In this document: one piece after another, positions 42,645-56,898 of the stretch | Layout: each line of letters opens with the position of its first letter | Numbering within the stretch: the stretch's first letter is position 1 | Origin: an uncultured Acidimicrobiaceae bacterium | GTDB taxonomy: Bacteria; Actinomycetota; Acidimicrobiia; Acidimicrobiales; Bog-793 | DNA length: 64,000 bases | Assembly (NCBI GenBank): GCA_963804265.1 | Contig: CAWDPZ010000005.1 | Location: 6,799-70,798 of the forward strand | Reading direction: 5' to 3' | Program-made: the position numbers and the translations under genes | Notes under the pieces: model-generated | The model's input: the letters and a program-made list of their open reading frames with translations, nothing else | Told to the model about the DNA's origin: nothing | Databases searched by the model: none

Positions 42645-42766
42645 GAGCGAGGCGATCCTCGTGCGTTCCTGCCTCGAGGCCGTTGCCCTGGCTTTTTCCG
42701 AGGGCCGCCCGTGACCGCCCGCGGCAAGAAGGCCGCAGTCGCCCACGAAGCAACGGACGGCCCGAC

Positions 42767-43534: not shown

Positions 43535-43669
43535 GGAGGGAGCCCTTGGGCTTGGCGGCCGGAGCGACCGGTCAGGTTGGGAATCGATTCCGCCGACCGC
43601 CCGGGGCAGGAGTGATTTCGCATTGTCGTGACGGGGCCGCCGGGCATCGTCGAGGAGAGGAGCCATCGA

Positions 43670-44798
43670 GTGAAGATCACGAAGGTCGACGCGATTCCGG
43701 TCGCCTACCCGGAGCCGAACGACTGCGACGCCACGCGGTATCTGGTCTTCTGCCGGCTCGAGACGGCCGACGGCGTCGTCGGGTGGGGTGAGGCGATCAC
43801 CCAGTTCCCCGAGTCGACCAGAGCCACGGCCGTGCTCCTGGACGGCCTCTCCGAGGTGCTCGTCGGCCGGGACCCCTTGCAGCACCTGGCGATCTGGGAG
43901 GACCTCATCAAGCGGTCCTGGTGGTACGGGTACGAAGGGGGGCTCGCCTGGTTCGCCATCAGCGCCATCGACGTCGCCCTCTGGGACCTCAAGGGCAAGA
44001 TCCTCGGGGCATCGGTGAGCGAGCTCATCGGGGGAGCGGTGCGGACCGAGCTGCCCGTGATCGCCTCCACGCACGCCTTCAACCCGAGCCTGGACTTCGA
44101 GATCGAGCGCCACGGGCGGTATGTGACCGAGGAGAAGTACCAGGGCGTCAAGATCGGCATGGGCAAGAAGGGCGAGGCCCGGCTCGGCTACGAGTTCGAC
44201 CGCGACGTGGCCTTCGTGGCGGGGCTGCGCGAGGCGATCGGCCCCGAGGCGCTCTTGATGATGGACCGGGGCCAGAGCCTGGCTTGGGACGTGGCGACCG
44301 CGATCCGAAGGACGCAGGCTTTCAGCGAGCACGGGCTCACCTGGATGGAGGAACCTCTCGAGCCGACGGACGTGGAAGGCTTCCGCCGCCTGCGCCAGCA
44401 GGTCAGCTGCCTGATCGGCACGGGGGAGCGGGAGTTCACCATGCGCGGCTACCGCCGTGTCGTCGAGAGCGGCATCAGCGACGTCATCGGATTTCGACCC
44501 CGGTCGCGCCGGCGGGATCACGGGGGGTCTGCAGGTGATCGAGCTCGTCGAAGCAGCCGACATCTGGTTCAACGCCCACACCTGGAGCAGCGCCGTCTCT
44601 ACGGCGGCGAGCCTGGCGCTGTCCGCGAGCACGCGCCGTTGCCTCACCTTCGAGCTCAAGCCCTTGGCGAACCCTATGCAGCACGAGCTCGTCCCGGAGC
44701 CGTTTGCCCAGCAAAATGGCTGGATCAGCGTCGGCAAAAAGCCCGGGCTCGGCATCGAGGTCATCGAGCCGGTGCTCGAGAAGTACCGGCTCAAGTAA
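43670..44798 (+). pseudogene. Enolase-superfamily enzyme (mandelate racemase/muconate lactonizing type), one frame disruption
   Basis: A GTG at 43670 follows GAGGAGAGG. VKITKVDAIPVAYP...AISAIDVALWDLKGK...LMMDRGQSL...WMEEPL...GEREF...ISDVI shifts near 44490 into 44457..44798 (DPGRAGGITGGLQV...NAHTWSSAVSTAASLAL). Confidence 0.8.
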
Positions 44799-44832
44799 GC
44801 ACTGCAGCGTCGGGACTTCGGGGAGGGATCAC

Positions 44833-45587
44833 ATGGCCGACAAGTTGCTAGCCGGCAGGCGGGCGATCGTCACCGGCGGCGGCGGTGGGATCGGCTCGGC
44901 GGTCGTGGCCGGGCTGCACGCCTCGGGTGCCGCCGTCGCGGCCGTGGGCCGCTCCGCGAGCGTCCACCACACCGTCGTAGCCCTGCCGCAAGGAGGCCCC
45001 TTCGCGGTGGGCGTCGAGGCGGACCTTTCCGGGCGGAGCGGTTGCGAGGACGGCTTCGCGGGCGCTCGAGCAGCTCGGAGGGCTCGACATCCTCGTGACG
45101 GCGCACGGCCATGTCCGCCCGCAGCCCTCGGCGCTGGTGGACGAGGAGGACTGGGAGCGCACGCTCGCGACGAACCTCACCTCGGTGTTCCGGCTCTCCC
45201 AACTGGCCTTCGCGGAGATGGAGCCGCAGGGCAGGGGCAAGATCATCCACATCGCCTCCATGTACGCCTTCCTCGGCGGTCTCCGGGTCGCCGCCTACGC
45301 CGCCAGCAAAGGCGGCGTAGGCCAGCTCACAAAGAGCCTGGCGATCGAGTGGGCGCCGTCCGGGGTGAACGTGAACGCCATCGCCCCCGGCTACATCAGA
45401 ACCCAGTTGAACCGGCACATCTGGAACGAACCGGAGCGCGCCGCGCAGGTGATCAGGCCGCATTCCCGCCGGCCGGTGGGGCGAGCCCGAAGACCTGCTC
45501 GGCGCGGTGAGGTTCCTCGCCTCCGCCATGTCCGACTACGTCCACGGCATCGTGCTCCCGGTCGATGGCGGCTACCTCGCCCGCTAG
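44833..45587 (+). pseudogene. Short-chain dehydrogenase/reductase (KduD/FabG-like), two frame disruptions
   Basis: ATG at 44833. LAGRRAIVTGGGGGIGSAVVAGL shifts near 45065 to LDILVTAHGHV...IASMYAFLGGLRVAAYAASKGGVGQLTKSLA...NAIAPGYIRT. It then shifts near 45460 to [41 protein letters not shown], ending at TAG 45585-45587 (my own translation). Confidence 0.8.
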
Positions 45588-45699: not shown

Positions 45700-46552
45700 G
45701 TGGACAGCTTCTCCTTCCACCGGTTCTTCGGCGAGACGAACCGGTGGGAGGTGCCGATCGGTCAGCGTTGGGCCCTCGGCGACCTCCTCGCTTACGTCGA
45801 GGGCCTCGGCGCAGACGTGCTCTCTTTGCAGACGATCCACGTCGCGGACAAGAGCGCGCTCGGCGATCGAGCGAGCTGCGCGACGAGCTCGGCCGGATAG
45901 GCGTCGAGTGCATCTACGCCTGGGGTCACCGCAACGGGCTGGAGAACGGCCGCAGCCCCGAGAAGCTCGCCGATGCGCTCGCAGCGGTGCGTGCCGCGAG
46001 CGAGCTCGGCTGCCGCACGGTCCGGGTCGTATGCGGCGACCAGGACTCCTGGAGCAGAGACCGCGGCGACGGGGTCTGCAGATATCCCAGCTGCGGGCGC
46101 CTCTGGCGGATATCGGCCGGGAAGCGGAGCGGCTCGGGCTCGTCGTGGCCGTCGAGAACCACGCCGACCGTCCGGTCGCCGACGTCGTCGACCTCGTCGC
46201 CGGCGTCGGGTCCGCTCACGTCGGCATCTGCCTCGACGTCGGCAACGCCGTCCGGGTGGGCGACGATCCGGTGGAAGCCGTCGAGGCGGCCTCGCCCTGG
46301 ATCGTCATGACGCATCTTCGGGACCTCAGTACCGCCGGCGCCCCGCACGGGGATCCCGCGGGATGGTGGCCGTGCGTGGCCCTCGGCGAGGGCGACCTCG
46401 ACATCCCGGGCATTCTCGGGGCTCTGCAGCGCGCCCCGCGTTGTGATGACTGGGTCGTCGAGATCTCGAACGTCTGGCCCCGCACCTCCGAGCTCGCCGT
46501 CCTCGACGCCAGCCTCGCCTATCTAAGGGCCTGGCTCACCGCCCGGGCTTGA
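45700..46552 (+). pseudogene. Sugar phosphate isomerase/epimerase (TIM barrel) family protein, at least 2 frame disruptions
   Basis: VDSFSFHRFFGE... (45700..45900) leads to ELRDELGRIGVECIYAWGH...GCRTVRVVCGD (45639 frame), then to LGLVVAVENHADRPVADVVDLV...ICLDVGNA...VMTHLRD (45095..46552 frame). The start is uncertain. Confidence 0.65.
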
Positions 46553-47386
46553 CGCGATGGAAGCGGAGAGAGCGGTCGTCACGGTGCCGTCCGACTTCCT
46601 CGCCTCGAGGAGGCACGAGGTGTCGTCCTCCCGCAGGATGTAGACGTCGACCCCTTCGCCGTCGAACACCGCAGCCTTCGAGCGGAACTCGAGGGTGAGC
46701 GACGATCCGAGCTCCCGCTCGGCCTCGCGGGCGAGCAGCATCGTGAGCAGCGGACCGTGCACGACGAGACCGGGGTAGCCCTCCTCGCCGGTCGCATAGC
46801 CGCGGTCGTAGTGGATCCGGTGCGAATTCCACGTCGCGGCCGAGAAACGGAAGAGAGCGACTGAGCTGAACTCGACATGGCGGACGACCTCCCAGGAACC
46901 CTGGGCTGTTTGCGGTGCCTCGCCGGCTCGGGCGCCCGGGCTCGCCGGCCTTTGCTCTTCGGTCCTCGCCGGCAGGTAGACGAGCGACTGCATCTCCTCG
47001 AGCGCGGTGGCCCCGCTCTGGAGGTAGGTGTGGCGCCACTGGCACACGACGAGGTCGCCGCTTCGCCCGTGGTGCTCGCGCATCTCGACGATCTCGGAGA
47101 GCTTCTCCGCCGGCTCCCCGACGACGAGTCCTCTCAGCTGCTGCACCCTGCCGCCGCCCGCCATGCGGCGCGGGAATCTCTGCGCCAGCTCGTCGTCCCG
47201 GCGCGGGTGCCCGTCCGGGCCGAGCTCGGCGAGCGGCGCGAGCTCGGGGAAATACGCCCAGTGCCACAGCGCCGGCAGGAGGTCGCCCCCCTCGAAGCGC
47301 CTCCCGGGCCCGACCGCGGAGGCCAGCCTCTCGGCGACCTCGGGCGACATCGAATCGGTGCGGGTCAGACGGGCCTCCGTGCTCAA
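46523..47386 (-). CDS. MaoC-like double hot-dog acyl dehydratase/enoyl-CoA hydratase
   Basis: LPALWHWAYFPE...GGRVQQLRGLVVGE...VALFRFSAATWNSHRIHYDRGYATGEEGYPGLVVHGPLLTMLLA. The start is TTG at 47386 or ATG at 47350. The 3' end overlaps the convergent TIM-barrel gene by about 30 nt. Confidence 0.75.
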   Translation of the reverse strand: MSTEARLTRTDSMSPEVAERLASAVGPGRRFEGGDLLPALWHWAYFPELAPLAELGPDGHPRRDDELAQRFPRRMAGGGRVQQLRGLVVGEPAEKLSEIVEMREHHGRSGDLVVCQWRHTYLQSGATALEEMQSLVYLPARTEEQRPASPGARAGEAPQTAQGSWEVVRHVEFSSVALFRFSAATWNSHRIHYDRGYATGEEGYPGLVVHGPLLTMLLAREAERELGSSLTLEFRSKAAVFDGEGVDVYILREDDTSCLLEARKSDGTVTTALSASIASSPGGEPGP

Positions 47387-47420
47387 AGAACCCGGCCTCT
47401 TGCCGTGGTGGCGGGCCGCC

Positions 47421-48492
47421 TCACCGCGCCGCGGCCCTCCTCGCCGCCACGCGCTGGTGAGCCTCGGCACGGGGGCGCTGGGTCGATTCGCGTTGTACGT
47501 AGTAGGTGGGCAGCACGATGCTGCGCAGGGGCGAGTCGCTCTCCTCGAGGCGGGCGAGGAGCAGCTCGGCGGCGACCGTGCCCATCTTCTCGGCGTCACG
47601 GGCGACCACGCTCACCGGCGGGTCCATCAGGCGGAGCAGCTCGACGTCGTCACAGATCACGAGGGAGACGTCCTCCCCGTGGCGCAGCCCGCGTTCGTTC
47701 AGTGCCGCCAGCGTGCCGACCCCGAGCTGCGAGTTCCCGGCGATGATGGCTGTCGGCGGCTTGTCACGGTCGAGCAGGCTCGTGGCGGCGTTGAAGCCGT
47801 CGTCGCGTGAGTAGGAGCTGACCTCGGCCACGAAGTCGTCCGAGGAGGAGATGCCGGCCGACATGCAAGCCGCCCGGAAGCCCTTCAACCGCTCGCGCGA
47901 GCCACGCGTCTCGCCCGAGCCCACGATGAGGCTGATCCTGCGGTGGCCGAGCTTCAAGAGGGCCGTCGTCGCCTCGCCCACCCCGGCCGAGTGGTCGAAG
48001 AACACGGCGTCGGAGGCGACCCCCTTGATCTCCCGGTCGAGGAACACGATCGGCGTCGACTGGTTCTTCAACGCCCGCACCGTGTCGGCGTTCGTCTCCG
48101 ACTGCAGGGAGAGGATCAGTCCGTCCACGCGGCGTTGGCGCAGCACGCCGACATGCTTGGCATCGAGCATCGGATCGCCCAGCGAGTTCATGAGGAGTAT
48201 GGAATAGCCGTGGCTCTCCAGCTCCTGTTCGGCTCCCTTGACGATCCCCGCGAAGAGGGGGTTCGAGATGTCGCGCACGACGAAGCCGATGGTCCGTGTG
48301 GCACCGAGGCGGAGGCTCTGGGCGAGGAAGTCCGGCTTGTAGCCGAGCTGCTCGACGGCGTGCATGACGCGGGCGCGCATGTCCGGGCTCACGTCCGGAT
48401 GGTCGTTGAGGGCGGCGCGAGACCGACGAGGCCGCGACCCCGGCCAGGCGCGCCACCTCCTTGATCGTTGCCTGCTGTTCGTTGGGAGCCAT
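47421..48492 (-). pseudogene. LacI-family transcriptional regulator, one frame disruption in the HTH region
   Basis: ATG at 48492. MAPNEQQATIKEVARLAGVAASSVSR (47764..48774 frame) shifts near 48425 to ALNDHPDVSPDMRARVMHAVEQLGYKPDFLAQSLR...IGFVVRDISNPLF... (47421..48392 frame). Confidence 0.85.
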
Positions 48493-48510
48493 CAGCCTTC
48501 CGAGGGACTG

Positions 48511-48600
48511 CCGTCTGTGTGGTGCCGGTCTGTATGGGCAGGTCTGTGTGGTGCAGGTCTGTGCTGTCCCGGCCTTCGCGGTGCCGGCCTGTGTAGTGCC
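48511..48600. repeat. Six tandem degenerate 15-bp units, consensus GGTCTGTGTGGTGC(C/A)
   Basis: The units are at 48511-25, 48526-40, 48541-55, 48556-70, 48571-85 and 48586-600, read directly. The array lies 19-108 nt upstream of the LacI-family start codon. Confidence 0.8.
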
Positions 48601-48627
48601 AAATAATACGTGCGCCGCGGCGCGACG
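48601..48627 (-). terminator. Candidate intrinsic terminator after the lipoyl-carrier gene
   Basis: On the minus strand there is a GC hairpin around the GCGCCGCGGCGC palindrome (48609-48627). It is followed by UAUUAUUU (forward AAATAATA, 48601-48608). The stem is short. Confidence 0.35.
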
Positions 48628-48691
48628 CCGGGTGATGCGGTCCCGGGTGGGCGCCCACGGTCTGCTGCCGGGCCGCCGGACGTGCCACGGC

Positions 48692-48928
48692 TCAGCTCTC
48701 GATGACGCAGACGGGCGCCCCGACGTCGACCTCGTCGCCCTCCGAAGCGAGGTGCTCGACGACGGTGCCGGCAACGGGTGAGGGCACCTCGATCGTGACC
48801 TTGTCGGTCTCGACGACCATCAGGGTCGAGCCGACCTCGACGCGCTCGCCCACCGAGGCCGTCCATTCCGCGATGAGCGCGGTTTGTGTGGTGTCTCCCG
48901 GGCGGGGGAGTTTGACGATATGACGCAT
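48692..48928 (-). CDS. Free-standing lipoyl-attachment domain protein (78 aa)
   Basis: ATG at 48928. MRHIVKLPRPGDTTQTALIAEWTASVGERVEVGSTLMVVETDKVTIEVPSPVAGTVVEHL carries the lipoyl-lysine motif ETDK. It has no E2 catalytic domain. It starts 5 nt after the E1 alpha stop. Confidence 0.8.
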   Translation of the reverse strand: MRHIVKLPRPGDTTQTALIAEWTASVGERVEVGSTLMVVETDKVTIEVPSPVAGTVVEHLASEGDEVDVGAPVCVIES

Positions 48929-48933
48929 GGTTC

Positions 48934-49961
48934 TCAGCTCTCCGAGGCGGCTACGCGGGTGAACATGTGGGCAGTGGTTGGCCGGGGACTTTCCAGCACC
49001 CGGGCGAGCGTTGCCTCGAGGGCTGCCCGCTGTTCGGCCCAGATGCGCTCGATGCCGTCCTCGTCGAGGGTGCCGGCGGCCACGAGCTTGTCGCCGTAGA
49101 GCCTTATCGGGTCCCGCTCGAGCCACGCCTCGAGCTCGCCCTCGGGGCGGTAGGTCGCCTTGTCCGAGCGCGAGTGGCCTGAATAGCGGTAGGTCTTGGC
49201 TTCGAGGAAGCTCGGGCCGTCTCCTGTCGGGCCCGGGCGGCCGCCCGTTCGACGGCGTCGCGGACGGCGTCGACGTCCTGGCCGTCGACGGTCTCGCTCG
49301 GGATGGCGTAGCCCGCTGCCCGCAGCGCCAGGTCGGCCACGGGGGTGGTCCGGTTGATGCGGGAGTACTCGCCGTAGAGGTTGTTCTCGCACACGAACAC
49401 GACGGGAAGCCGCCAGATCGACGCCAGGTTGAGCCCCTCGTGGAATCCGCCGATGTTCGTCGCTCCGTCGCCGAAGACTGAGACCGCGACCCGGTCCGTT
49501 CCGAGAACCTGTGCCGTCAGGGCGGCCCCGGCCGCGACCGGGACGCTCGCCCCGACGATCGCCATCGTCGGCAGCAGTCCGACGGAGGGGTCGCTCAGGT
49601 GCATCGAGCCGCCGAGGCCGCCCATGCACCCGATCTGGCGGCCGAGGATCTCGCCGAGCACGGCTTCGGGCAGCATCCCGAGAGCAAGGGCGATGCCGTG
49701 ACCGCGATAGGTGCACACGACAGTGTCGTCAGGACGCGTGGCTCCTGCGATGCCCAGGGCGACGGCCTCCTGGCCCTGGGAGGTGTGCGTCGTGCCCGGG
49801 ATGAGCCCTTCTCCGAACAGCTCTATCACCCGGTCCTCGATGAGTCGGATCTCGATCATGCGCCCGAGGCAGGCCGCCTTGTCGCTCGTGACCGCCTGGC
49901 GCCTGGCGATGGTGCTCGAGTGCGAGATGGCCTGACCGCTTTCGATCCCGGAAGTGCTCAT
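48934..49961 (-). pseudogene. Thiamine-diphosphate-dependent 2-oxoacid/acetoin dehydrogenase E1 alpha subunit, one frame disruption
   Basis: ATG at 49961 follows a GAAGGAG RBS. CTYRGHGIALALG...GGSMHL...VFGDGATNIGGFHEGLNLASIWRLPVVFVCENNLYGEYS shifts near 49215 into the 48934..49716 frame (PSFLEAKTYRYSGHSRSDKATYRPEGELEAW). Confidence 0.85.
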
Positions 49962-50969
49962 CGCTCCTTCTCCCACCAGTGCTCGGGCGCCCTGCCCGTC
50001 GAGACCAGGGCCGCGATCTGGGTCGCGGCGTATTCGGCCGAGGGCAGGAACCGCAGCTCGAGCTCTGAACCGTAGGGAACATGGACGTCCGGTGCCGTTA
50101 CACGCGCCACAGGGGCCCGCAGGCTCGTCGTGGCACCTGGAGGCGACATGAGAGGCGATCTCGGCGCCCCATCCTCCCGTGAGCTGGTTCTCCTCGACCG
50201 TGACCAGCCGTCCGGTCTTGGACACCGACCGCTCCACGATCTCCTTGTCCCAGGGCATCAAGGTCCGAAGGTCGATGACCTCGGCGTCAAAGCCTTCGGC
50301 CTGCGCGGCGGCCTCGAGGGCGACGGCGACCGTCTGCCCGAGAGCGACGACGGTCACGTCGCCTCCCTGCCTGGCGATCTCGCCCACGCCGAGGGGGACG
50401 ACGGCATCCTCGTTCGGCTCGAACTCCTCGCGGCGCCCGTACAGGGTCCGGGGCTCGAGCACGACGACAGGGTCGGGGTCGCGGATCGCCGCCTTGGTCA
50501 GCCCGTAGGCCGAGCGGGCGCCGGACGCGACGGCAAGCTTCAGTCCGGGCGTGCCGAGGAGCCACCGCTCCAATGTCTGGGAGTGCTGGCATCCGAAGCC
50601 GAGTCCCGATCCGCACGAGGCCCGCACCGTGAGGGGAGCGTTCAGCCTCCCCCCGGACAGGTAGTGCATCATCGCCGCTTCGGTGACCACCTGGTCGAGG
50701 GCGACACCGAGGAACTCGATGAACATGATCTCCACGACGGGGCGCAATCCGGTTAGGGCCGCCCCTACGGCTGCGCCGAGGAATCCCATCTCGGATATCG
50801 GCGTGTCGCGGACCCGGACCGGGCCGAAGCGCTCGAGGAGCCCCTCGGAGGTCTTGAACGGGCCCTCGGCCTCGGCGATGTCCTCCCCGAAGACCACAAC
50901 CGTCGGGTCACGCTCCATCTCCTCGCGGATCGCCAACGTGATCGCCTGGTTCATCCTGAGTCTTGCCAC
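49958..50969 (-). pseudogene. 2-oxoacid/acetoin dehydrogenase E1 beta subunit, one frame disruption
   Basis: MARLRMNQAITLAIREEMERDPTVVVFGEDI...RVRDTPISEMGFLGAAVGAALTGLRPVVEIMF...EENQLTGGWGAEIASHVA shifts near 50135 into 49958..50149 (LRAPVARVTAPDVHVPYGSELE). The ATGA overlaps the E1 alpha start. Beta precedes alpha. Confidence 0.85.
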
Positions 50970-50994
50970 GCCTCACCACATCCTCGTCACGTCG

Positions 50995-52305
50995 TCAGTC
51001 CCCGTTCCTCACGTCACCGGCCTTCGCGTGGCCGCTCCGATCCCCGAACCCGCCTGCGGTCCCGAGCGACTCGATCTCGTCGTCGCGCAGTCCGAGCACC
51101 TCCTCGAGCACCTCGCGAGTGTGCTCGCCGAGGAGGGGTCCGCGCCGGCGCACCGGCCCGGCTCCGCCCATGCGGGCCGCGCCTGCGACCTGGCGGACCG
51201 TGCCGAGGCTGGGGTGCTCGGTCTCGACGATCATGCCTCTTTCGGCGACCAGGGGATCGGCGAGGGCGCCGCCGACGTCGTTGACCGGTCCGCAAGGGAT
51301 GCCTTTCGACGACAGGGCCGCGAGCCACTCGTCCGTCGAGCGCTGCGAGAACAGTTCGCACAGCTGCGGCACGACGACATCGGCGTTGCGCCGGCGCGCC
51401 TCGAAGCTGGCGTAGTCCGGGTCGGTCTTCCACTCGGGCCTGCCGAGCTCGTCGACGAGGCGGCTCCAGAACTTCTCCTTCGGGCAGGCCACGACGATCC
51501 AGCCGTCGGCGGTCGGGAAGTTCTGGAACGGGACCATCGAGGGATGTGCCGACATCGGCATGCGGCGTGGTTGGTAGCCGCCGCTCAGGTGCCACGTGGC
51601 GACGTAGCTCAGCATCGAGACGGCCACGTCGAACAAGGCGACATCGCAGTCGGTGCCGACGCCGGTCTGCCGGGCGGCGACGACTCCGGCGAGGAGCGCC
51701 ATCGCCGCCGCAAGCCCCGTCGAGAAGTCGACGACGGAGAGACCCGCCTTCGCCGGTGGTTCATCGGGGCCCCCGGTGAGTGACATCCAGCCCGCCCGGC
51801 CCTGCATGATGTAGTCGTAGCCCGGCTCCGCCTGGGCGGAGCCGGTCATGCCGTAAGAGGTGAGGAAGCAGCAGACGATGCGCTCGTTGAGGTGGCGCAG
51901 GTCGGCGTACCTGATCTTGAGCTTCTCCGGCACGTCGCCGCGGACGTTGGCGAAGACCGCGTCCGACTTCTCGACGAGACGGTTGAACACGGCGCGCCCT
52001 GACGGGTTCTCGACATCCAGGAGAATGCTGCGCTTTCCGCGGTTGAAGGTCTCGAAGAACAGGCTCGAGTCCTCGCTCCGGAACGGTGGCACGGACCGGC
52101 CGACGTCACCCCCGCTCGAAGGGTCCTCGACCTTGATCACGTCCGCGCCGAGATCGACCAGCTGCGACGTGCCGAAAGGCCCGGCGCCGTACTGCTCGAG
52201 GGCGAGGATCCTCAGGCCGTGCAGGGGTCCTCGGGCAACCGTGCCCCCGGCATCGGTGCCGTCCGCGGGCGAGTCGGTGCGTGCCGTCTCCTCAGAGCCG
52301 GCCAA
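50995..52305 (-). CDS. Family III (CaiB/BaiF) CoA-transferase (third copy, intact)
   Basis: Intact 436-aa ORF (LRILALEQYGAGPFGTSQLVDLGADVIKVEDP...VFANVRGDVPEKLKIRYADL...CCFLTSYGMTG...). Confidence 0.9.
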   Translation of the reverse strand: MAGSEETARTDSPADGTDAGGTVARGPLHGLRILALEQYGAGPFGTSQLVDLGADVIKVEDPSSGGDVGRSVPPFRSEDSSLFFETFNRGKRSILLDVENPSGRAVFNRLVEKSDAVFANVRGDVPEKLKIRYADLRHLNERIVCCFLTSYGMTGSAQAEPGYDYIMQGRAGWMSLTGGPDEPPAKAGLSVVDFSTGLAAAMALLAGVVAARQTGVGTDCDVALFDVAVSMLSYVATWHLSGGYQPRRMPMSAHPSMVPFQNFPTADGWIVVACPKEKFWSRLVDELGRPEWKTDPDYASFEARRRNADVVVPQLCELFSQRSTDEWLAALSSKGIPCGPVNDVGGALADPLVAERGMIVETEHPSLGTVRQVAGAARMGGAGPVRRRGPLLGEHTREVLEEVLGLRDDEIESLGTAGGFGDRSGHAKAGDVRNGD

Positions 52306-52344
52306 TCGAGCCCTCGCAGTCGGCGCCGAGCTCTGTCGTAGCGG

Positions 52345-53460
52345 TCACTTGTCGGCCCGGAACTCAGCGATGAAGTCTTCGTCGAGCTCCCAGCCGAGCC
52401 CCGGCCCATCGGGCAGCTTGAACAGCCCGTTCTCGAGCTCCGGCCTGTTGGCGAGCATGCGCCAGAAGATGGGGTCGCGCTCGGGGTGGAACGCCTCGGC
52501 GTAGGTGCCGTGCGGGATCGAGGCGAGGAGATGGCTCGAGAGGTGGGCCTCCTCGTGATGGGCCATCTCCACTCCGAAGCTCATCGCCATCTGCGCCACC
52601 CTGCGCCACTCCGTCGGTCCGCCGCCCCAGGAGGCGTCGAAGTTGGACACGTCGATCGCCTCGCCGGTCATGAGGTCCCGCATCGCCACCCGATTGATCT
52701 CCGTCTGGCCGGCGGCGACCGGAACGCCCGTCTTCAGGCGGACGGTCTGCATGGAGCGGCGGTCGTCCGGCCACTGGCACGGCTCCTCGAACCAGCGCAG
52801 CTGGACGAAGTCTCGCGTCCCCTCGACGAACTCGATCGCCTGGGAGGCCGTCCAGCCCTGATTCGCGTCGACGAGGAACACGAAGCCCGGGCGGGCCGTC
52901 TTCACGGCGCGGCGGAGCCGCTGCAGGTCCTCCTCGGGCGAGGCGCCGCCGATCTTGAACTTCATGCCGACAAAGCCCCCGTCGGAGAAGAAGCTGACCT
53001 CCTTCTCGATGTTGGCGGGATCGTCGGTGTAGTAGCCGCCGATGCCGATCATGGGGATGTCGGAGCGGAACCCGCCCCAGAGGCGGTAGAGCGGCGTCTC
53101 GAGCGCCTTGCCGACGGCGTCCCAGAGGGCCGTGTCCACGCAGCCGATCGCCTGCATGGCAAAGCGGCGGTCACGCAGCTGGTCGAAGGTGATGCGGCGC
53201 ATGGCCTCCCAGCAGTCCTCTATAGCAAAGGCGTCCCGTCCCACGAGTAGAGGCGTCAGCTCGTCGCGCACGATCGTCATGATCGCGGCCTGCTCGTCGT
53301 CGGCATCCGCGTTGTACGACTCGCCGACGACGCCCTCCTCGGTCGTGACGCGGGTGATGATCGTGCATCGGCGCGGCATGCGGTAGTAGCTGCCGCGGTA
53401 GAGCCGCGCCAGGGTGACGCGCACCGGTACGGTCTCGATCGATCGGATGCGAAGTCGCAC
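52345..53460 (-). CDS. Enolase-superfamily enzyme (mandelate racemase/muconate lactonizing type)
   Basis: I prefer the GTG at 53460, preceded by GGGGGG (VRLRIRSIETVPVRV...). The ORF track extends it to a TTG at 53565. Motifs are AIGCVDTALWDAVGK, FKIGG, LVDANQGW, WFEEP and AAGQTE. The gene is intact. Confidence 0.85.
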   Translation of the reverse strand: MRLRIRSIETVPVRVTLARLYRGSYYRMPRRCTIITRVTTEEGVVGESYNADADDEQAAIMTIVRDELTPLLVGRDAFAIEDCWEAMRRITFDQLRDRRFAMQAIGCVDTALWDAVGKALETPLYRLWGGFRSDIPMIGIGGYYTDDPANIEKEVSFFSDGGFVGMKFKIGGASPEEDLQRLRRAVKTARPGFVFLVDANQGWTASQAIEFVEGTRDFVQLRWFEEPCQWPDDRRSMQTVRLKTGVPVAAGQTEINRVAMRDLMTGEAIDVSNFDASWGGGPTEWRRVAQMAMSFGVEMAHHEEAHLSSHLLASIPHGTYAEAFHPERDPIFWRMLANRPELENGLFKLPDGPGLGWELDEDFIAEFRADK

Positions 53461-53584
53461 TGCCCCCCAACTTTCGTATCGTTCCGTGTCCTCTGGCGAG
53501 CGGAGATCCTGTCCGCCGTCACGCACTTTCACACTGGCGAGGATGGCACTGACTTTCCTCGCCAAATTACTGGTATCGATTCCG

Positions 53585-53701: not shown

Positions 53702-53894
53702 TGCAGCCGTCAGGGCGAGACTCCGGCGTGTTGCCATCGCCAAGTCACCTTCGGCTCAGGCCGGTGACGCGGTATGCGGCCGGCCGCGATCGGAATTCTC
53801 GCGGACCGGGAGTTTCGGACCGGAGCACCTCTTTGCGGGGCGGCGGGGCCTACGAACAGGTGCTGGAACACCTCCGGCCACCATGAGCGACGGC

Positions 53895-53911
53895 GAACCG
53901 GCACCCGGTTC
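53895..53911 (+). other. Perfect hairpin GAACCGG-CAC-CCGGTTC followed by a pyrimidine/T-rich stretch
   Basis: Read directly inside the approximately 800-bp noncoding gap. Its function is unknown (weak terminator or leader structure). Confidence 0.25.
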
Positions 53912-54148
53912 TGCATCCTCTTTACTCCGGGCCGACCGGAGGATCCCCTGCGCGCCAGCCGCCCGGAGCTCGCCAGGTCTCAATCCTTTCGCCTGAGCAC
54001 CCCTGTTTCCAAGGCTTCTAGCAGCTCAAGATCCGGCTCCTGCCGTCGCTCAGCGCCTTCGCCCAGATCGGCGGGAAGATCCAGGCCCGTCGCCCGGGGA
54101 GCGGGGAGCGGTTCGGGGCCGATACGCTTCGGCGACCGATCCCGGTTC

Positions 54149-54177
54149 TTGACGTCTCCGTGTGGTCCAGATACAGT
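54149..54177 (+). promoter_or_regulatory. Promoter candidate TTGACG-N17-TACAGT
   Basis: This is the best sigma-70/SigA-like match I found in the window. It lies about 90 nt upstream of the bicupin GTG start. Confidence 0.45.
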
Positions 54178-54268
54178 TTGGCCACAATCGATTCCGGTCC
54201 CGAGGGGGGGAGTCGTCGGCGGCGCTGGGGAGATCAGCGCCCCGACGATGCGGAGAAGGAGGCTGCAC

Positions 54269-55207
54269 GTGACGGACAGCAAGCTTGATTGGGAGACGCT
54301 GACGCAGTGGTCCAAGGGCTTCCCCTTCCGTGGGAACAAGCAGGTCCCGACGGTGATACCCCGGCGGTCCATCCCGTTCTCGTCGTGGGGGCCGGACCCC
54401 GACGGCTGGCACCGCACGCCGTGCTGGATCTACACGAGCACCCCGCAGATCGGTTTCGTGTGCACGATGTCGGTCGCGCCCGGCGACTTCTTCGAGAACG
54501 GCAACCACCCGAACGTCGAGACCTACTACCAGATGTCCGGCACGCTGCATGTGCAGAACGCCGACACCGGGCAGGTCATCGAGGTGCGTCCCGGCGACGG
54601 CTTCGTCATGCCGGCCTTCGAGTACCACATAGGCCACAACTTCTCGACCGAGGAGTCGGTCACCTTGTGCTGCGTTCCCGGCGAGTCGCACACCGAGGAG
54701 TTCCACAAGAACCCGATCCTGGCGGAGAACTACGCCCGCGAGCCCGTGACGCTGTTCGGGAAGTCCAACTCGAACTCCGGGTTCCCGTCCCAGCTGCGCC
54801 ACCTCGCGGAGTGGCCTTCCATGAACCCGAACTCGCGCGGCAAGAGCGACTTCGTGAGCGTGCCCCGCGCCGACTGGCTGAACGTCGTGCTCGGCGCGGA
54901 CCCTCGTCACGCGCTGCTGGCGTCGTTCTATTACAGCTCGCCGCAGCTGGCCGCCTACAGCGTCACGGTGCCGCCGAACCGTATCGGCCAGGCACACGCC
55001 ATCAACGGCGAGACGGTGATCTACGTCAAGGAGCTCGACGTGATCATCGACGTGCTGGAGACCGGCGAGAGTCTCTACGCCGAGGAAGGCGACGCCGTCT
55101 TCATTCCGCCAGGCGTCAAGTTCCAGTACCAGAACCGGCGCGACAAGACCGTGGAGGTGATGGTGTTCAGCTCGCCGTGGGACCCGGCGACTTTGGTCCC
55201 GAGTTGA
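54269..55207 (+). CDS. Hypothetical protein, probable double-cupin fold
   Basis: A GTG at 54269 lies 6 nt after AGAAGGAGG (54254-54262). The two cupin-like halves are GDFFENGNHPNVETYYQMSGTLHVQN...GDGFVMPAFEYHIGHN and IGQAHAINGETVIYV...GDAVFIPPGVKFQYQN. The ORF-track extension to 53774 is rejected. Confidence 0.55.
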   Translation: MTDSKLDWETLTQWSKGFPFRGNKQVPTVIPRRSIPFSSWGPDPDGWHRTPCWIYTSTPQIGFVCTMSVAPGDFFENGNHPNVETYYQMSGTLHVQNADTGQVIEVRPGDGFVMPAFEYHIGHNFSTEESVTLCCVPGESHTEEFHKNPILAENYAREPVTLFGKSNSNSGFPSQLRHLAEWPSMNPNSRGKSDFVSVPRADWLNVVLGADPRHALLASFYYSSPQLAAYSVTVPPNRIGQAHAINGETVIYVKELDVIIDVLETGESLYAEEGDAVFIPPGVKFQYQNRRDKTVEVMVFSSPWDPATLVPS

Positions 55208-55297
55208 TTCAGCGACGGCGGAGGCGCCGCCGTGGGCCGCAGGCTCAGGGCGCCGCACCGGCAACAAAGCATCTCTTTCAACTACCAAGGGGGGTTT

Positions 55298-56881
55298 ATG
55301 GAAAATCTGTCACGTAGGGAGTTCCTCGGCTACGGCGCGGCGGCGGCGGCTGGTGGGGTCGCGCTCGGTCTCGGTGCTCCGGCGCTCGGAGCCGGCGCGA
55401 CCGAGCGCCACCAGGCTGAGGCTGAGGAGCCCCATGCCGGCAACACCGGCTCGATCACGGTCGGGATGCGTGCCATCCTCACCAGCTTGAGCCCGTTCGC
55501 CATCCAGGGCTACCAGTGGTCCCAGATGATGGGATTCGTCCTCTACGACCCGCTCGTGCAGGTCATGGCGGACGGCACCCTGGCACCTGTCGCGGCGGCG
55601 TCGTGGGACACCTCGAGCCCGACCCAGACGATCATCCACGTGCGGCCCGGGATGCACTTCCACAACGGTGCGGAAGTCACCGCGAAGGACGTCGCCTACT
55701 CGATCGCCGCCCGCTGCGACCCGAAGGTCATCGCGGTCACGAGCGGTCGGCCGGTGATGTCGCCCAAGCAGTGGGCGGGCGTCACGACGCCGAGCAAGTA
55801 CACCGTCGTCGTGCACACGACCTCCCGCGTTCGCCTGCTCGAGAACCCGCAGCCGATCCTCGTCGTGCCCTACAACGCCTTCAAGCTCTTCAACGTCAAC
55901 ACCCAGGACGTCGGGTCCGGGCCGTTCACGCTCGAGAACTTCGTGAGCGGCAGCAGCCTGGCCGTGGCGGCGAACCCGAACTACTGGGGCGGCGAGCCGA
56001 AGATCCGCACGCTGACCTTCCGGCTCTTCAACGACGTCTCCGAGGAGGCGCTCAACATCCGCTCCGGCGAGGTGCAGGGCATCTACGACGTCGACCCGCT
56101 GAACTTCAAGCAGGTCTCGGGCGTGCCGAACACCAAGGTCATCCGCGAGGCGACGTACGCCAACTGGTGGATCATCCAGATGGGCCAGCCGCCGTTCGAC
56201 AACCCGGCGGTGCGCAGAGCCATCCGCTATTGCTTCAACATGCCGCTCATCAACAAGACGGCTTTCGGCGGCCTCGGCACCCACCCCTGGGACGGGTTCG
56301 GCTTCTACCCGCCCTCCTGGCAGATCAGCCAGAAGTACACGGGCGGCTACGACCCGGCCAAGGCGGCGTCGCTGCTCAAGGCGGCCGGTGTCAAGACGCC
56401 GTTCAACGTCGGGCTGATCGGCCTGAACAACTACCAGGACTCGATCAACGAGGGCCAGGTCATCCAGCAGGGGCTGAAGGCGGCCGGGCTCAACGCCACC
56501 TTCCAGGCCCTCACCGACGGGGACTGGCTGTCGTCGACCTACGGCAAGGGCAACTGGACGGGTCTCGCCTTCAACGCGGGCAACATCCCGTTCCCGTTCC
56601 TCAACTTCTGGGACTACCTCGTCGACCCCTCGAGCCTGCTGAGCGCCTACAAGAAGGGCTATCCGAACCCGACCGTGGCGGCGCTCTACAACAAGGTGGA
56701 GGCCGGCACGGATCCGCAGGAGCCGGCGCTGCTGAAGCAGGCCCAGACGATGATCCTGAACGACGCCGTCGTGTACTTCATGTTCGGCGGACCGGTCAAC
56801 ATGATCCTGCCCAACAACGTCCACGGTGTGATCGTGAACGGATACGGTGACGTGAGGTGGCACAAGGCTTCCTTCTCGTAA
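55298..56881 (+). CDS. ABC transporter substrate-binding protein, family 5 (peptide/nickel type), Tat-type signal
   Basis: ATG at 55298 follows GGGGGG. MENLSRREFLGYGAAAAAGGVALGLGAP is followed by an intact family-5 body. Confidence 0.9.
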   Translation: MENLSRREFLGYGAAAAAGGVALGLGAPALGAGATERHQAEAEEPHAGNTGSITVGMRAILTSLSPFAIQGYQWSQMMGFVLYDPLVQVMADGTLAPVAAASWDTSSPTQTIIHVRPGMHFHNGAEVTAKDVAYSIAARCDPKVIAVTSGRPVMSPKQWAGVTTPSKYTVVVHTTSRVRLLENPQPILVVPYNAFKLFNVNTQDVGSGPFTLENFVSGSSLAVAANPNYWGGEPKIRTLTFRLFNDVSEEALNIRSGEVQGIYDVDPLNFKQVSGVPNTKVIREATYANWWIIQMGQPPFDNPAVRRAIRYCFNMPLINKTAFGGLGTHPWDGFGFYPPSWQISQKYTGGYDPAKAASLLKAAGVKTPFNVGLIGLNNYQDSINEGQVIQQGLKAAGLNATFQALTDGDWLSSTYGKGNWTGLAFNAGNIPFPFLNFWDYLVDPSSLLSAYKKGYPNPTVAALYNKVEAGTDPQEPALLKQAQTMILNDAVVYFMFGGPVNMILPNNVHGVIVNGYGDVRWHKASFS

Positions 56882-56898
56882 GCACGCTGCAGTAGGAC

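What the first reader, a model, noticed from the sequence alone, without database searches (positions are those of the whole stretch)
46523..53460. E1 beta / E1 alpha / free-standing lipoyl carrier operon with no E2 catalytic or E3 gene, embedded among CoA-transferase, enolase-superfamily and MaoC genes
- **Gene string.** The minus-strand order is enolase-superfamily enzyme, family III CoA-transferase, E1 beta, E1 alpha, a 78-aa lipoyl-domain protein (ETDK motif), a terminator-like hairpin plus repeat array, a LacI regulator, and a MaoC double hot-dog dehydratase.
- **Departure from the canonical complex.** Canonical 2-oxoacid and acetoin dehydrogenase complexes encode the lipoyl domain fused to an E2 acyltransferase core and pair it with E3. 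Here the lipoyl domain is a stand-alone protein, and no E2 core or E3 is present anywhere in the 64 kb.
- **Subunit order.** Beta precedes alpha, the reverse of the usual alpha-beta order. The two are ATGA-coupled.
- **Hypothesis (inference).** The context suggests a non-canonical oxidative decarboxylation step feeding a CoA-transferase/hydratase route for a dehydrated sugar acid or dicarboxylate.
Basis: partly seen in the sequence, partly recalled or inferred. Interest (0 to 1): 0.6.

Follow-up and report, generated by a model that had tools for sequence, protein, structure and literature searches.

The report
E1 enzyme with free lipoyl carrier
A sugar-acid breakdown operon encodes the first enzyme of a pyruvate-dehydrogenase-type complex plus a free 78-residue lipoyl carrier protein but no E2 or E3 partner, and this layout is conserved in a distinct bacterial clade that has apparently never been studied.

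Summary

**What is there.** The minus-strand gene string is: enolase-superfamily dehydratase, family III CoA-transferase, E1 beta, E1 alpha, a 78-aa lipoyl protein, a LacI regulator, and a double hot-dog hydratase.
A 95-98% identical contig is intact at all three sites and broken elsewhere. Frame switches pervade the window, so these are most likely long-read assembly errors.
- The "MaoC" gene is an itaconyl-CoA hydratase homologue.

**No E2 or E3.** No E2 catalytic core or E3 is detectable anywhere in the 64 kb.

**Not an E2 remnant.** The lipoyl protein has 40 homologues, 35 of them exactly 78 aa. Lys43 is invariant in all 39 aligned, and the fold model is confident.

**A distinct clade.** In an E1 alpha tree of 85 loci, all 13 beta-alpha-carrier loci form one clade: Acidimicrobiia, Nanopelagicaceae, other Actinomycetota and Mesorhizobium isolates. 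None has an E2 core or E3 within 10 kb. An enolase-superfamily dehydratase lies within 10 kb in all but one truncated context.

**Best reading.** A dedicated E1 plus mobile lipoyl carrier oxidatively decarboxylates a 2-keto-3-deoxy sugar acid. Reoxidation and acyl off-loading come from elsewhere. Substrate and off-loading step are inferred. No description turned up in eight literature searches.

The parts
52345..53565 (-). Enolase-superfamily (MR/MLE) putative acid-sugar dehydratase. Longest ORF is 406 aa. Orthologues are about 371-382 aa, so the true start is probably downstream of the TTG.
   Evidence: Pfam MR_MLE_N and MR_MLE_C, full-length. Best NCBIfam hits are arabinonate dehydratase and talarate/galactarate dehydratase, all far below cut-off. 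An MR_MLE gene is present in all but one related context.
50995..52305 (-). Family III CoA-transferase, 436 aa.
   Evidence: Pfam CoA_transf_3, E 1e-116, covering 1-366 of 366. Nearest solved structures are formyl-CoA transferase and succinate-hydroxymethylglutarate CoA-transferase. A CoA-transferase is linked to the trio in the window and L002, L009, L011, L014, L015, L017 and L018. It is absent from L004/L013, L012, L016, L092, L093 and L094.
49958..50969 (-). E1 beta subunit, 336 aa after repair. As assembled it is broken by a 1-nt insertion near 50128. Its TGA stop overlaps the E1 alpha ATG (ATGA).
   Evidence: Three-frame reading. L001 lacks the extra base at 50128. Pfam Transket_pyr and Transketolase_C. 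Intact 334-336 aa orthologues exist in L002, L011, L004, L092 and L093.
48934..49961 (-). E1 alpha subunit, about 342 aa after repair. As assembled it is broken by a 1-nt deletion near 49226.
   Evidence: Three-frame reading. L001 has the extra base at 49226. Pfam E1_dh, E 3e-73. The ThDP motif GDG...NN and the YRYSGHSRSD loop are conserved.
48692..48928 (-). Free-standing lipoyl carrier protein, 78 aa, intact. The predicted lipoyl-lysine is K43, in VETDKV. Its ATG lies 5 nt after the E1 alpha stop.
   Evidence: Pfam Biotin_lipoyl, E 2e-19. Of 40 homologues, 35 are exactly 78 aa. K43 is invariant in the 39-sequence alignment. AlphaFold2 pLDDT is 93, and TM-scores of 0.92-0.97 match E2 lipoyl domains.
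48612..48628 (-). Terminator-like GC-rich hairpin (7 bp stem, 3-nt loop) followed by a weak T-rich tail, downstream of the carrier gene.
   Evidence: Consensus scan found 2 sites in the region against 0.2 expected. The hairpin is conserved in L001 only.
48509..48600 (.). Imperfect 15-nt tandem repeat array, 6.3 copies, 75% matches, between the hairpin and the LacI start. Copy number varies, and the array is not conserved outside this species.
   Evidence: Tandem Repeats Finder. About 2 copies in L001 and none in L002 or L011.
47421..48491 (-). LacI-family regulator, 356 aa after repair. As assembled it is broken by a 1-nt insertion near 48414, between the HTH and the rest of the protein.
   Evidence: Three-frame reading. 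L001 lacks the extra base. Pfam LacI plus Peripla_BP_1/3. Intact 356-361 aa orthologues occupy the same position in L002 and L011.
46523..47350 (-). Itaconyl-CoA hydratase-like double hot-dog protein, 275 aa.
   Evidence: No Pfam hit at E 1e-3. phmmer against PDB gave 8khg 'Itaconyl-CoA hydratase' and 8huc 'MaoC_dehydrat_N domain-containing protein', both 275 aa, E 2e-38. The orthologue in L011 is followed by a CitE/HpcH_HpaI-type lyase with a 4-nt overlap.

Best explanation
The operon encodes a dedicated, heterotetramer-type, ThDP-dependent E1 (beta and alpha subunits, translationally coupled). Its acceptor substrate is a separately encoded 78-residue lipoyl carrier protein (LCP). The lipoyl domain is not tethered to an E2 core.

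**Proposed mechanism**
1. The neighbouring enolase-superfamily dehydratase turns a sugar acid into a 2-keto-3-deoxy sugar acid.
2. E1 decarboxylates this 2-oxo acid on ThDP.
3. E1 reductively acylates lipoyl-Lys43 of the LCP.
4. The acyl group (a 2-deoxy-aldonyl, that is 3-hydroxyacyl, thioester) is passed on or released.
5. The dihydrolipoyl-LCP is reoxidised by the cell's general dihydrolipoamide dehydrogenase, encoded elsewhere. The LCP thus shuttles between proteins as the glycine-cleavage H protein does.
6. In this window the product is then handled as a CoA ester by the family III CoA-transferase and the itaconyl-CoA-hydratase-like enzyme.

**Shown:** gene identities, conservation of the free carrier, absence of E2 and E3 nearby, monophyly of the arrangement, conserved catalytic motifs, and linkage to acid-sugar dehydratases.

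**Inferred:** the substrate, lipoylation itself, E3 acting in trans, and how the acyl group leaves the carrier.
For: **A conserved free carrier.** Of 40 homologues, 35 are exactly 78 aa, at 56-99% identity. In the 39-sequence alignment E40, D42 and K43 of the (E)-T/S-D-K motif are invariant, as are P8, G11-T14 and W22. A lipoyl-site pattern recalled from memory matches 37 of 39. The model has pLDDT 93, with K43 in the hairpin between strands 35-40 and 45-49. TM-scores of 0.92-0.97 match E2 lipoyl domains.

**Tight coupling.** Beta and alpha overlap by 4 nt. The carrier ATG lies 2-14 nt after the alpha stop in the window, L002, L011 and L004.

**One clade.** In an NJ tree of 85 E1 alpha sequences, all 13 beta-alpha-LCP loci form a single clade. 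It includes two Mesorhizobium isolates and Nanopelagicaceae. All 71 orientable other loci are alpha-then-beta, mostly with a canonical E2.

**No E2 core or E3 nearby.** No clade locus has either within 10 kb (Pfam tables; local HMM). The window has none in 64 kb.

**E1 looks catalytically competent.** The ThDP motif GDG-x26-NN and the YR(Y/F)xGHSRxD loop are conserved throughout the clade. From general knowledge, the His in that loop is needed for reductive acylation of lipoamide in PDH and BCKDH E1.

**Linkage to dehydratases.** An MR_MLE dehydratase is in every context except the truncated L021. It is directly adjacent to the trio in L014, L016, L017, L092, L093, L094 and L009. No KD-sugar-acid aldolase or FAH hydrolase is annotated beside the trio in most contexts.

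**Precedent for trans use of lipoyl domains in Actinobacteria.** OdhA's E2 domain depends on the lipoyl residues of AceF (Hoffelder et al. 2010, cited in PMC5301498).
Against: - No biochemical data exist, and the substrate is inferred from neighbourhood only.
- In the window, E1 beta and E1 alpha are frameshifted as assembled. If the shifts are real, this copy is dead. This is judged unlikely.
- E1 alpha is most similar to pyruvate dehydrogenase E1 alpha (human 1ni4, 195 bits; TIGR03182, 308 bits). Pyruvate as substrate cannot be excluded.
- The neighbourhoods are heterogeneous: rhamnose/fucose-like, apionate-lactonase-like and itaconate-like. A single common substrate is unlikely.
- Whether an E2 or E3 exists elsewhere in these genomes could not be checked.
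- The Lpd search had no positive control other than the query itself.
Confidence: 0.55

Rival explanations
1. Accessory pyruvate dehydrogenase. The E1 acts on pyruvate, an end product of many sugar-acid routes. The LCP only delivers acetyl groups to the housekeeping E2 core and electrons to E3. It would be needed because an alpha/beta-type E1 cannot dock on the actinobacterial AceE-type complex.
For: The best matches of E1 alpha and E1 beta are PDH models. TIGR03182 scores 308 bits. PRK09212 scores 320.9 bits against a cut-off of 321. The top PDB hit is human PDH E1 alpha.
Against: - Scores are below the equivalog cut-off for alpha (308 against 394).
- The clade is separate from the canonical alpha-beta-E2 operons.
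- Most contexts show no aldolase or hydrolase that would release pyruvate.
- A clade-specific substitution occurs in a conserved E1 alpha motif: GKGGSMH becomes G[LVIM]GGSMH in 13 of 13 loci.
Confidence: 0.15
2. Acetoin-dehydrogenase-like C-C cleavage. The E1 does not decarboxylate. It cleaves an alpha-hydroxyketone or diketone intermediate, for example a keto-sugar or a 2,4-diketo-3-deoxy acid made by the neighbouring SDRs. One fragment is transferred onto the LCP and an aldehyde is released.
For: - One to three SDR genes accompany the trio in nearly every context.
- The lipoyl protein scores well against the acetoin-type E2 model PRK14875 (62 bits, lipoyl part only).
- From general knowledge, E1-type enzymes that load a fragment of a ketose onto lipoate are known (QncN/QncL in quinocarcin biosynthesis).
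Against: There is no specific sequence evidence for an acetoin-type E1. The most constant neighbour is a dehydratase that produces a 2-oxo acid, which is the classic E1 substrate.
Confidence: 0.15
3. Decayed or mis-assembled canonical operon. The lipoyl ORF is the stump of an E2, and the frameshifted E1 genes are pseudogenes.
For: There are three 1-nt frameshifts in E1 beta, E1 alpha and LacI. A repeat array lies just downstream of the lipoyl gene.
Against: - The 78-aa length is conserved in 35 of 40 homologues and across phyla.
- Intact 336, 340-341 and 78 aa orthologues occur in L002 and L011.
- L001 is intact at each window frameshift and broken at other sites.
- At least 12 further within-gene frame switches are spread over the whole window. 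This pattern fits consensus errors.
- Only about 200 nt separate the lipoyl stop from lacI, and no E2-like sequence is found in any frame.
Confidence: 0.05
4. The LCP is not the E1's acceptor. It is a biotinyl or regulatory domain protein, or a lipoate-relay protein, that merely sits in the operon. On this reading the E1 uses another electron acceptor.
For: The fold is shared with biotinyl domains, and BCCP structures are among the top fold hits. From general knowledge, H-protein-like carriers act as lipoate relays in some bacteria.
Against: - The motif is ETDK, not the biotinyl MKM.
- All top-scoring sequence models are E2 lipoyl domains.
- The strict beta-alpha-LCP synteny, with gaps of 2-14 nt, is shared across Actinomycetota contexts.
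Confidence: 0.05

Closest known systems
Heterotetrameric (alpha2beta2) E1 of pyruvate, branched-chain 2-oxoacid and acetoin dehydrogenase complexes (PdhA/PdhB, BkdA, AcoA/AcoB)
   Same: - Same domain families: E1_dh, and Transket_pyr plus Transketolase_C.
- The ThDP motif and the GHS-loop histidine are conserved.
- Best database matches are PDH E1 alpha and beta.
   Different: - Gene order is beta then alpha. All 71 orientable other relatives are alpha then beta.
- Scores are below the PDH equivalog cut-offs.
- No E2 or E3 gene is in the operon or within 10 kb.
- A clade-specific Lys-to-hydrophobic change occurs in the GKGGSMH motif.
Lipoyl domains of E2 acyltransferases (AceF, SucB, AcoC)
   Same: - Same fold (TM-scores 0.92-0.97) and same ETDK lipoyl-lysine hairpin.
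- Same N-terminal 'LPxLG...W' region.
   Different: It is a complete protein of 78 aa. It has no linker, no peripheral-subunit-binding domain and no catalytic core. The family-specific invariant motif is GDTT(Q).
Glycine cleavage H protein (GcvH) and LbpA of sulfur oxidisers
   Same: These are free, mobile lipoyl carriers that shuttle between separate enzymes and rely on a shared E3 (general knowledge; LbpA in PMC6067878).
   Different: - The fold subfamily differs. The GCV_H Pfam match is below cut-off: 20.8 against 22.2 bits.
- The partner here is a 2-oxoacid-dehydrogenase-type E1, not a P-protein or an sHdr system.
Actinobacterial OdhA/Kgd system
   Same: It is a precedent in the same phylum for an E1 working with lipoyl domains supplied in trans by another protein (Hoffelder 2010, cited in PMC5301498; PMC10415282).
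   Different: OdhA carries its own E2 catalytic domain and borrows the lipoyl domain of AceF. The present system has its own lipoyl domain and lacks the E2 catalytic domain.
Alphaproteobacterial PdhB with an N-terminal lipoyl domain (NCBIfam PRK11892; Zymomonas type, from general knowledge)
   Same: The lipoyl domain is associated with E1 rather than only with E2. The LCP matches residues 5-78 of that model.
   Different: In that system the domain is fused to E1 beta and a normal E2 and E3 are still present. Here the domain is a separate gene downstream of alpha, with no E2 or E3.
Itaconate degradation module (Ict family III CoA-transferase, Ich hydratase, Ccl CitE-type lyase)
   Same: The 275-aa protein is a clear homologue of itaconyl-CoA hydratase. 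A family III CoA-transferase is in the operon. In L011 a CitE/HpcH_HpaI-type lyase follows the hydratase.
   Different: No lyase is adjacent in the window; a CitE-like fragment lies 30 kb away. The module is embedded in a sugar-acid operon with E1 and LCP. The CoA-transferase scores far below the equivalog cut-offs.

Membership tests
2-oxoacid dehydrogenase E1, alpha/beta type | E1_dh domain in alpha; Transket_pyr plus Transketolase_C in beta | tested here: met
   Pfam E-values of 3e-73, 4e-37 and 3e-34 on frameshift-repaired proteins.
2-oxoacid dehydrogenase E1, alpha/beta type | ThDP-binding motif GDG-x(25-30)-NN, and the histidine of the YRxxGHS loop | tested here: met
   [31 protein letters not shown] and TYRYSGHSRSD are conserved in all 13 clade members. 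The functional role of these motifs is from general knowledge.
2-oxoacid dehydrogenase E1, alpha/beta type | Uninterrupted reading frames | tested here: not met
   There are 1-nt indels near 50128 (beta) and 49226 (alpha). They are probably assembly errors. L001 is intact at both sites and the window has many other frame switches.
Pyruvate dehydrogenase E1 (NCBIfam equivalog level) | Score at or above the curated cut-off | tested here: not met
   Alpha: TIGR03182 scores 308.3 against a cut-off of 393.85. Beta: PRK09212 scores 320.9 against 321, and PRK11892 scores 315 against 454.
Canonical 2-oxoacid or acetoin dehydrogenase complex operon | Lipoyl domain fused to an E2 catalytic (2-oxoacid_dh) core | tested here: not met
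   The protein ends 2 residues after the lipoyl domain. No E2 core is found in six frames of the window, best E 4.3. None is found in any clade locus.
Canonical 2-oxoacid or acetoin dehydrogenase complex operon | E3 (dihydrolipoamide dehydrogenase) encoded in or near the operon | tested here: not met
   tblastn and phmmer with E. coli Lpd found no hit in the window (best E 0.3) or in any of the loci held at that point. The Pfam tables of all contexts, including L092-L094, show no Pyr_redox family.
Canonical 2-oxoacid or acetoin dehydrogenase complex operon | E2 and E3 present elsewhere in the same genome | not testable with these tools
   Only 64 kb of the source genome and 10-kb flanks of related loci were available.
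Lipoyl domain (Biotin_lipoyl, lipoylated subclass) | Pfam Biotin_lipoyl match, and a lysine in the (E)TDK(V/A) hairpin rather than the biotinyl MKM | tested here: met
   E 2e-19. VETDKV is present, with K43 invariant in 39 of 39 sequences.
Lipoyl domain (Biotin_lipoyl, lipoylated subclass) | Flattened beta-barrel fold with the modified lysine at a beta-turn tip | tested here: met
   AlphaFold2 pLDDT 93, with K43 between strands 35-40 and 45-49. Foldseek TM-scores of 0.92-0.97 match PDH L2 lipoyl domains.
Lipoyl domain (Biotin_lipoyl, lipoylated subclass) | Actual lipoylation and reductive acylation by E1 | not testable with these tools
   This requires mass spectrometry and an enzyme assay.
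Glycine cleavage H protein | GCV_H family match above the gathering score | tested here: not met
   20.8 bits against a cut-off of 22.2, covering only 35 residues.
Itaconate degradation module (Ict/Ich/Ccl) | Ich-type hydratase, CoA-transferase and CitE-type lyase encoded together | tested here: inconclusive
   The Ich homologue (E 2e-38) and a family III CoA-transferase are present. No lyase is adjacent in the window. It is present next to the hydratase in L011, and a fragment lies at 15773-16282.
Enolase-superfamily acid-sugar dehydratase | MR_MLE_N plus MR_MLE_C domains, and a match to a characterised dehydratase equivalog | tested here: inconclusive
   Both domains are present. The best equivalogs, arabinonate dehydratase (156 bits against 650) and talarate/galactarate dehydratase (134 against 500), are far below cut-off.

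The most novel reading that the evidence does not exclude
This would be a genuinely E2-free, lipoate-dependent route for 2-keto-3-deoxy sugar acids. It would stand as a third fate beside aldol cleavage and the dehydratase/dehydrogenase (Weimberg-type) route.

- E1 loads a 2-deoxy-aldonyl group onto the free carrier.
- The thioester is resolved without a CAT-fold E2. One option is intramolecular attack of the acyl chain's 4-hydroxyl, giving a 2-deoxy-aldono-1,4-lactone. The other is transfer by the adjacent family III CoA-transferase, acting as a surrogate acyltransferase.
- The free acid or lactone would then need re-activation. That would explain why CoA-transferases, a CoA ligase (Mesorhizobium), lactonase-type genes and hydratase/lyase genes recur around the trio.
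Probability: 0.2. Interest if true: 0.8.

Novelty: new variant of a known kind. Interest (0 to 1): 0.6.

Why it matters
**Breaking the textbook architecture.** 2-Oxoacid dehydrogenases are described as E1-E2-E3 machines whose lipoyl arm is tethered to the E2 core. Here a monophyletic group of E1 enzymes has detached the lipoyl arm into a 78-residue shuttle protein and dropped E2 and E3 from the locus.

**Ecological reach.** The group occurs in abundant environmental lineages: soil Acidimicrobiia, freshwater Nanopelagicaceae and other Actinomycetota, and in cultivable Mesorhizobium.

**A possible unrecognised catabolic step.** The group is consistently wired to acid-sugar dehydratases. If the inferred function is right, it defines oxidative decarboxylation of 2-keto-3-deoxy sugar acids as a step in carbohydrate catabolism.

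**A tractable system.** It would offer a minimal, soluble E1/carrier pair for studying how E1 recognises lipoyl domains. The Mesorhizobium isolates make it directly testable.

**Annotation.** Current annotation mislabels the carrier as 'sucB' or 'E2 component'. This inflates predictions of TCA-cycle and PDH capacity in MAGs.

Tried and rejected
- **E2 remnant idea.** Rejected on length conservation and on the absence of any E2-like sequence in the 200-nt downstream spacer.
- **Pseudogene idea.** Largely rejected after base-by-base comparison with L001 and a window-wide count of frame switches.
- **The repeat array and hairpin as a conserved regulatory element.** Rejected. The array varies in copy number, and both features are absent outside the species. 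Rfam found nothing in the window.
- **CoA-transferase as an obligatory surrogate E2.** Weakened, because about half the contexts lack it.
- **Profile search with the LCP alignment against 1.84 billion representatives.** Uninformative for family size. Multi-lipoyl E2 proteins dominate the top 150, and only five stand-alone 78-81 aa representatives appeared.
- **Literature searches.** Eight full-text searches found no description of an E1 with a free lipoyl carrier in sugar-acid clusters. One further search call failed on a term-length error.
- **Pfam scan of every coding segment of the window.** Prepared but replaced by local profile searches for E2 and E3 to save budget. Most of positions 1-38 kb therefore has no Pfam annotation; only selected ORFs there were scanned.

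Full report
**1. What is in the sequence**

The window is about 69% G+C. Coding frames can be followed by third-position G+C content. On the minus strand between 53565 and 46523 lie seven genes. Their identities were confirmed with Pfam, NCBIfam and searches against PDB sequences.

| Gene | Coordinates (-) | Evidence |
|---|---|---|
| Enolase-superfamily protein | 53565-52345 | MR_MLE_N and MR_MLE_C |
| Family III CoA-transferase | 52305-50995 | CoA_transf_3, E 1e-116 |
| E1 beta | 50969-49958 | Transket_pyr, Transketolase_C |
| E1 alpha | 49961-48934 | E1_dh, E 3e-73 |
| Lipoyl protein, 78 aa | 48928-48692 | Biotin_lipoyl, E 2e-19 |
| LacI regulator | 48491-47421 | LacI plus Peripla_BP domains |
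| 275-aa hot-dog protein | 47350-46523 | PDB homologues only |

- The 275-aa protein has no Pfam hit at E 1e-3. It is an evident homologue of itaconyl-CoA hydratase (8khg and 8huc, E 2e-38).
- The beta stop and alpha start overlap as ATGA.
- The carrier ATG lies 5 nt after the alpha stop.
- Downstream of the carrier gene is a terminator-like hairpin at 48628-48612, then a 15-nt tandem array at 48509-48600.

**2.

E1 beta, E1 alpha and LacI are each interrupted by a single-base indel, near 50128, 49226 and 48414. The Pfam results above were obtained on repaired proteins. Three lines of evidence point to assembly errors rather than gene decay.

- A metagenomic contig 95-98% identical to the window (L001) is intact at all three positions. 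It carries its own indels at other positions in the same genes.
- More distant orthologues are intact with exactly the repaired lengths: 336, 340-341, 78 and 356-361 aa in L002 and L011.
- At least a dozen further within-gene frame switches are scattered across the whole window, in transporters and unrelated enzymes.

The related records come from the same series of assemblies (the ERZ250395xx records and the MFD bins). I suspect these are long-read assemblies, but that is an inference.

**3. No E2 or E3 in 64 kb**

- tblastn with the catalytic domains of E. coli AceF and SucB, and with Lpd, found nothing better than E 0.8 in the window.
- A profile built from 36 E2 cores found all the E2s in the canonical loci but nothing in the six-frame translation of the window, best E 4.3. 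The 36 cores are 34 from related canonical operons plus the two E. coli proteins.
- Lpd gave nothing in the window, best E 0.3.
- The only lipoyl domain in the window is the 78-aa protein.

**4. The 78-aa protein is a conserved free-standing protein**

- A search of 5.8 billion proteins returned 40 relatives at 56-99% identity. Thirty-five are exactly 78 aa, and the rest are 69-87 aa.
- The alignment of 39 of these sequences has an invariant E-(T/S)-D-K site and an invariant N-terminal GDTT motif.
- A lipoyl-site signature recalled from memory matches 37 of 39 sequences.
- AlphaFold2 gives pLDDT 93, with K43 at a beta-hairpin tip.
- Foldseek matches E2 lipoyl domains at TM-scores of 0.92-0.97.
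- The 200-nt spacer before lacI holds no E2-like sequence.

**5. The arrangement is a clade character**

A scan of 185,579 species genomes with the repaired E1 alpha returned 80 loci. I classified each locus by gene order and by what carries the lipoyl domain. I then built a neighbour-joining tree of 85 E1 alpha sequences.

- All 13 loci with the order beta, alpha, small lipoyl protein form one clade. These are the window, L002, L004, L009, L011-L018 and L021.
- Its members are Acidimicrobiia and other Actinomycetota MAGs, a Nanopelagicaceae MAG, and two cultured Mesorhizobium strains. In the Mesorhizobium strains the carrier gene has moved a few kb away.
- All 71 other loci whose gene order could be determined are alpha then beta. 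Most have a canonical lipoyl-E2 gene or no lipoyl gene nearby.
- Free carriers next to alpha-beta E1 genes also occur sporadically elsewhere (L022, L046, L050). The detachment may therefore have happened more than once.
- No clade locus has an E2 core or E3 within 10 kb. The same holds for three further contexts, L092-L094.

The second refutation criterion is not met either.

**6. Context**

- The most constant neighbour is an enolase-superfamily dehydratase. It is present in every context except one truncated contig, and is often directly adjacent. SDR genes, a LacI regulator and a sugar or oligopeptide-type ABC transporter are also frequent.
- Beyond that the contexts differ.
  - L004, L005 and L013 have a rhamnose/fucose-like set: rhaM, GFO_IDH_MocA, Amidohydro_2, Iso_dh and an aldolase-SDR fusion.
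  - L009 has apionate-lactonase domains.
  - L092 and L093 have Peptidase_M24, glyoxalase, an MIase-like gene and a large FAD-oxidase.
  - The Mesorhizobium loci have Iso_dh, Amidohydro_2, an acyl-CoA ligase and a CoA-transferase.
- A family III CoA-transferase is linked to the trio in about half of the contexts, including the window, L002, L009 and L011.
- The itaconyl-CoA-hydratase-like gene is present in the window, L001, L002 and L011. In L011 it is followed by a CitE-type lyase.

The E1/carrier trio thus behaves as a module plugged into different sugar-acid pathways.

**7. Mechanistic reading**

*Shown.* The E1 has all the sequence hallmarks of an active enzyme capable of reductive acylation. 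The carrier has all the hallmarks of a lipoylatable domain. The genes are translationally coupled. The module is tied to enzymes that make 2-keto-3-deoxy sugar acids, which are 2-oxo acids.

*Inferred.* E1 oxidatively decarboxylates that product and loads the resulting 2-deoxy-aldonyl group on the carrier. The carrier is reoxidised by a general E3. The acyl group leaves either through a housekeeping E2 core in trans, through the CoA-transferase, or by self-lactonisation of the 4-hydroxyacyl thioester.

The recurrent CoA-transferase and CoA-ligase genes are easier to understand if the E1/carrier step does not itself deliver a CoA ester. This is only an argument from parsimony.

The rivals cannot be excluded and are scored accordingly. 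They are an accessory pyruvate dehydrogenase and an acetoin-type cleavage of a hydroxyketone or diketone.

**8. Comparison with known systems**

At the family level the E1 is a member of the alpha/beta 2-oxoacid dehydrogenase E1 family, and the carrier is a lipoyl domain. The system fails the defining features of a canonical complex operon: it has no E2 fusion and no E3. It also falls below the PDH equivalog thresholds.

It works most like a hybrid of a 2-oxoacid dehydrogenase E1 and the glycine-cleavage logic of a free H-protein shuttle. Actinobacterial OdhA is a precedent for lipoyl domains used in trans (PMC5301498, reference 40; PMC10415282).

NCBIfam has no dedicated model for the carrier. 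Sources label it 'sucB' or 'E2 component'. Eight literature searches found no description.

**9. Verdict**

This is a real, conserved, apparently uncharacterised variant of a well-known enzyme system. The window's own copy is blemished by probable assembly errors. I score interest at 0.6 and class it as a new variant of a known kind.

Noticed in passing
whole window; e.g. 9073-10192(-), 10220-11397(-), 14029-15448(-), 16702-17698(+), 25007-26093(+), 28003-28991(+), 38193-39129(+), 43625-44795(+), 44830-45481(+), 59870-60930(+): Pervasive single-base frame switches occur inside otherwise well-conserved genes: at least 12 besides the 3 in the finding. The 95-98% identical contig L001 has reciprocal 1-nt indels, about 60 over 20 kb. 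The pattern looks like consensus error in a long-read metagenome assembly, so any ORF-based annotation of this record will be fragmented.
   Followed up: partly
window 48509-48600: A 15-nt imperfect tandem array (consensus TGCCGGTCTGTGTGG, 6.3 copies) lies between the carrier gene's hairpin and lacI. The near-identical contig L001 has only about 2 copies, and more distant relatives have none. It is either a variable-number repeat or an assembly artefact. No function is apparent.
   Followed up: partly
E1 alpha, window protein positions 114-121 (GGLGGSMH): The motif GKGGSMH is conserved in at least 80% of the 72 other E1 alpha relatives. In all 13 members of the beta-alpha-carrier clade the Lys is replaced by Leu, Val, Ile or Met. 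This may be a specificity determinant of the clade. A second clade-enriched difference is TSQGQEA against L.lGQEA at positions 60-66.
   Followed up: no
window 9073-22000: A second concentration of organic-acid/CoA genes lies here. It holds two more family III CoA-transferases (9073-10192(-), 19613-20785(+)), an acyl-CoA dehydrogenase (10220-11397(-)) and MmgE/PrpD-like proteins (11683-12597(-), 21081-21881(+)). It also holds FAH-like proteins and a CitE/HpcH_HpaI-type lyase fragment (15773-16282(-)). The lyase could be the missing partner of the itaconyl-CoA-hydratase-like gene. Only the lyase fragment was checked with Pfam; the other identities are read from the translations.
   Followed up: partly
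window 1-5800: This stretch has lower G+C (62% against about 69%) and lacks the high-GC3 coding signature. It contains a phosphofructokinase (3000-4220(+)), a GNAT acetyltransferase (1845-2381(-)) and an ArsR-type HTH protein (4282-5133(-)). No Rfam RNA was found in the window.
   Followed up: partly
window 41298-42746 region (+ frame); L002 1055-2560; L011 754-2256; L017 2812-4269, 14420-15883, 15880-17331: A neutral/alkaline ceramidase-family (Ceramidase_alk) gene of about 485-500 aa recurs in these sugar-acid clusters. L017 appears to carry three copies by sequence clustering. It sits next to AP_endonuc_2, SDR and GFO_IDH_MocA genes. This is an unexpected family for a carbohydrate locus, and its role is unknown.
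   Followed up: no
L015 13319-15772(-); L015 6954-8480(+): In Mesorhizobium comanense the E1 beta/alpha cluster is flanked by an 817-aa homodimer-type E1-like protein (Transketolase_N, PDH_E1_M, Transketolase_C_1) and an AMP-binding acyl-CoA ligase. The carrier gene sits on the opposite strand, upstream of E1 beta. A 336-aa protein with no Pfam match lies between E1 alpha and the CoA-transferase.
   Followed up: no
L022 9787-10026; L046 11987-12229; L050 11939-12178: Free 79-80 aa lipoyl proteins also sit next to alpha-then-beta E1 genes in unrelated lineages: an Actinomycetes MAG, a Spirochaetota MAG and a betaproteobacterial MAG. None has an E2 core within 10 kb. Detachment of the lipoyl domain may have arisen more than once.
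   Followed up: no
L092 10247-10549; L093 10263-10559; L094 4110-4397; L009 12500-12784: A small MIase-family protein of about 95-100 aa (muconolactone-isomerase-like) follows the carrier gene directly or closely in several contexts. L004 has an rhaM-type mutarotase nearby. It may be a further conserved accessory of the module.
   Followed up: no
window 53774-55207(+): A bicupin-like protein (two Cupin_2 stretches) is transcribed divergently from the operon, next to an SBP_bac_5-type ABC transporter (55232-60900). The same pairing occurs in L001.
   Followed up: no
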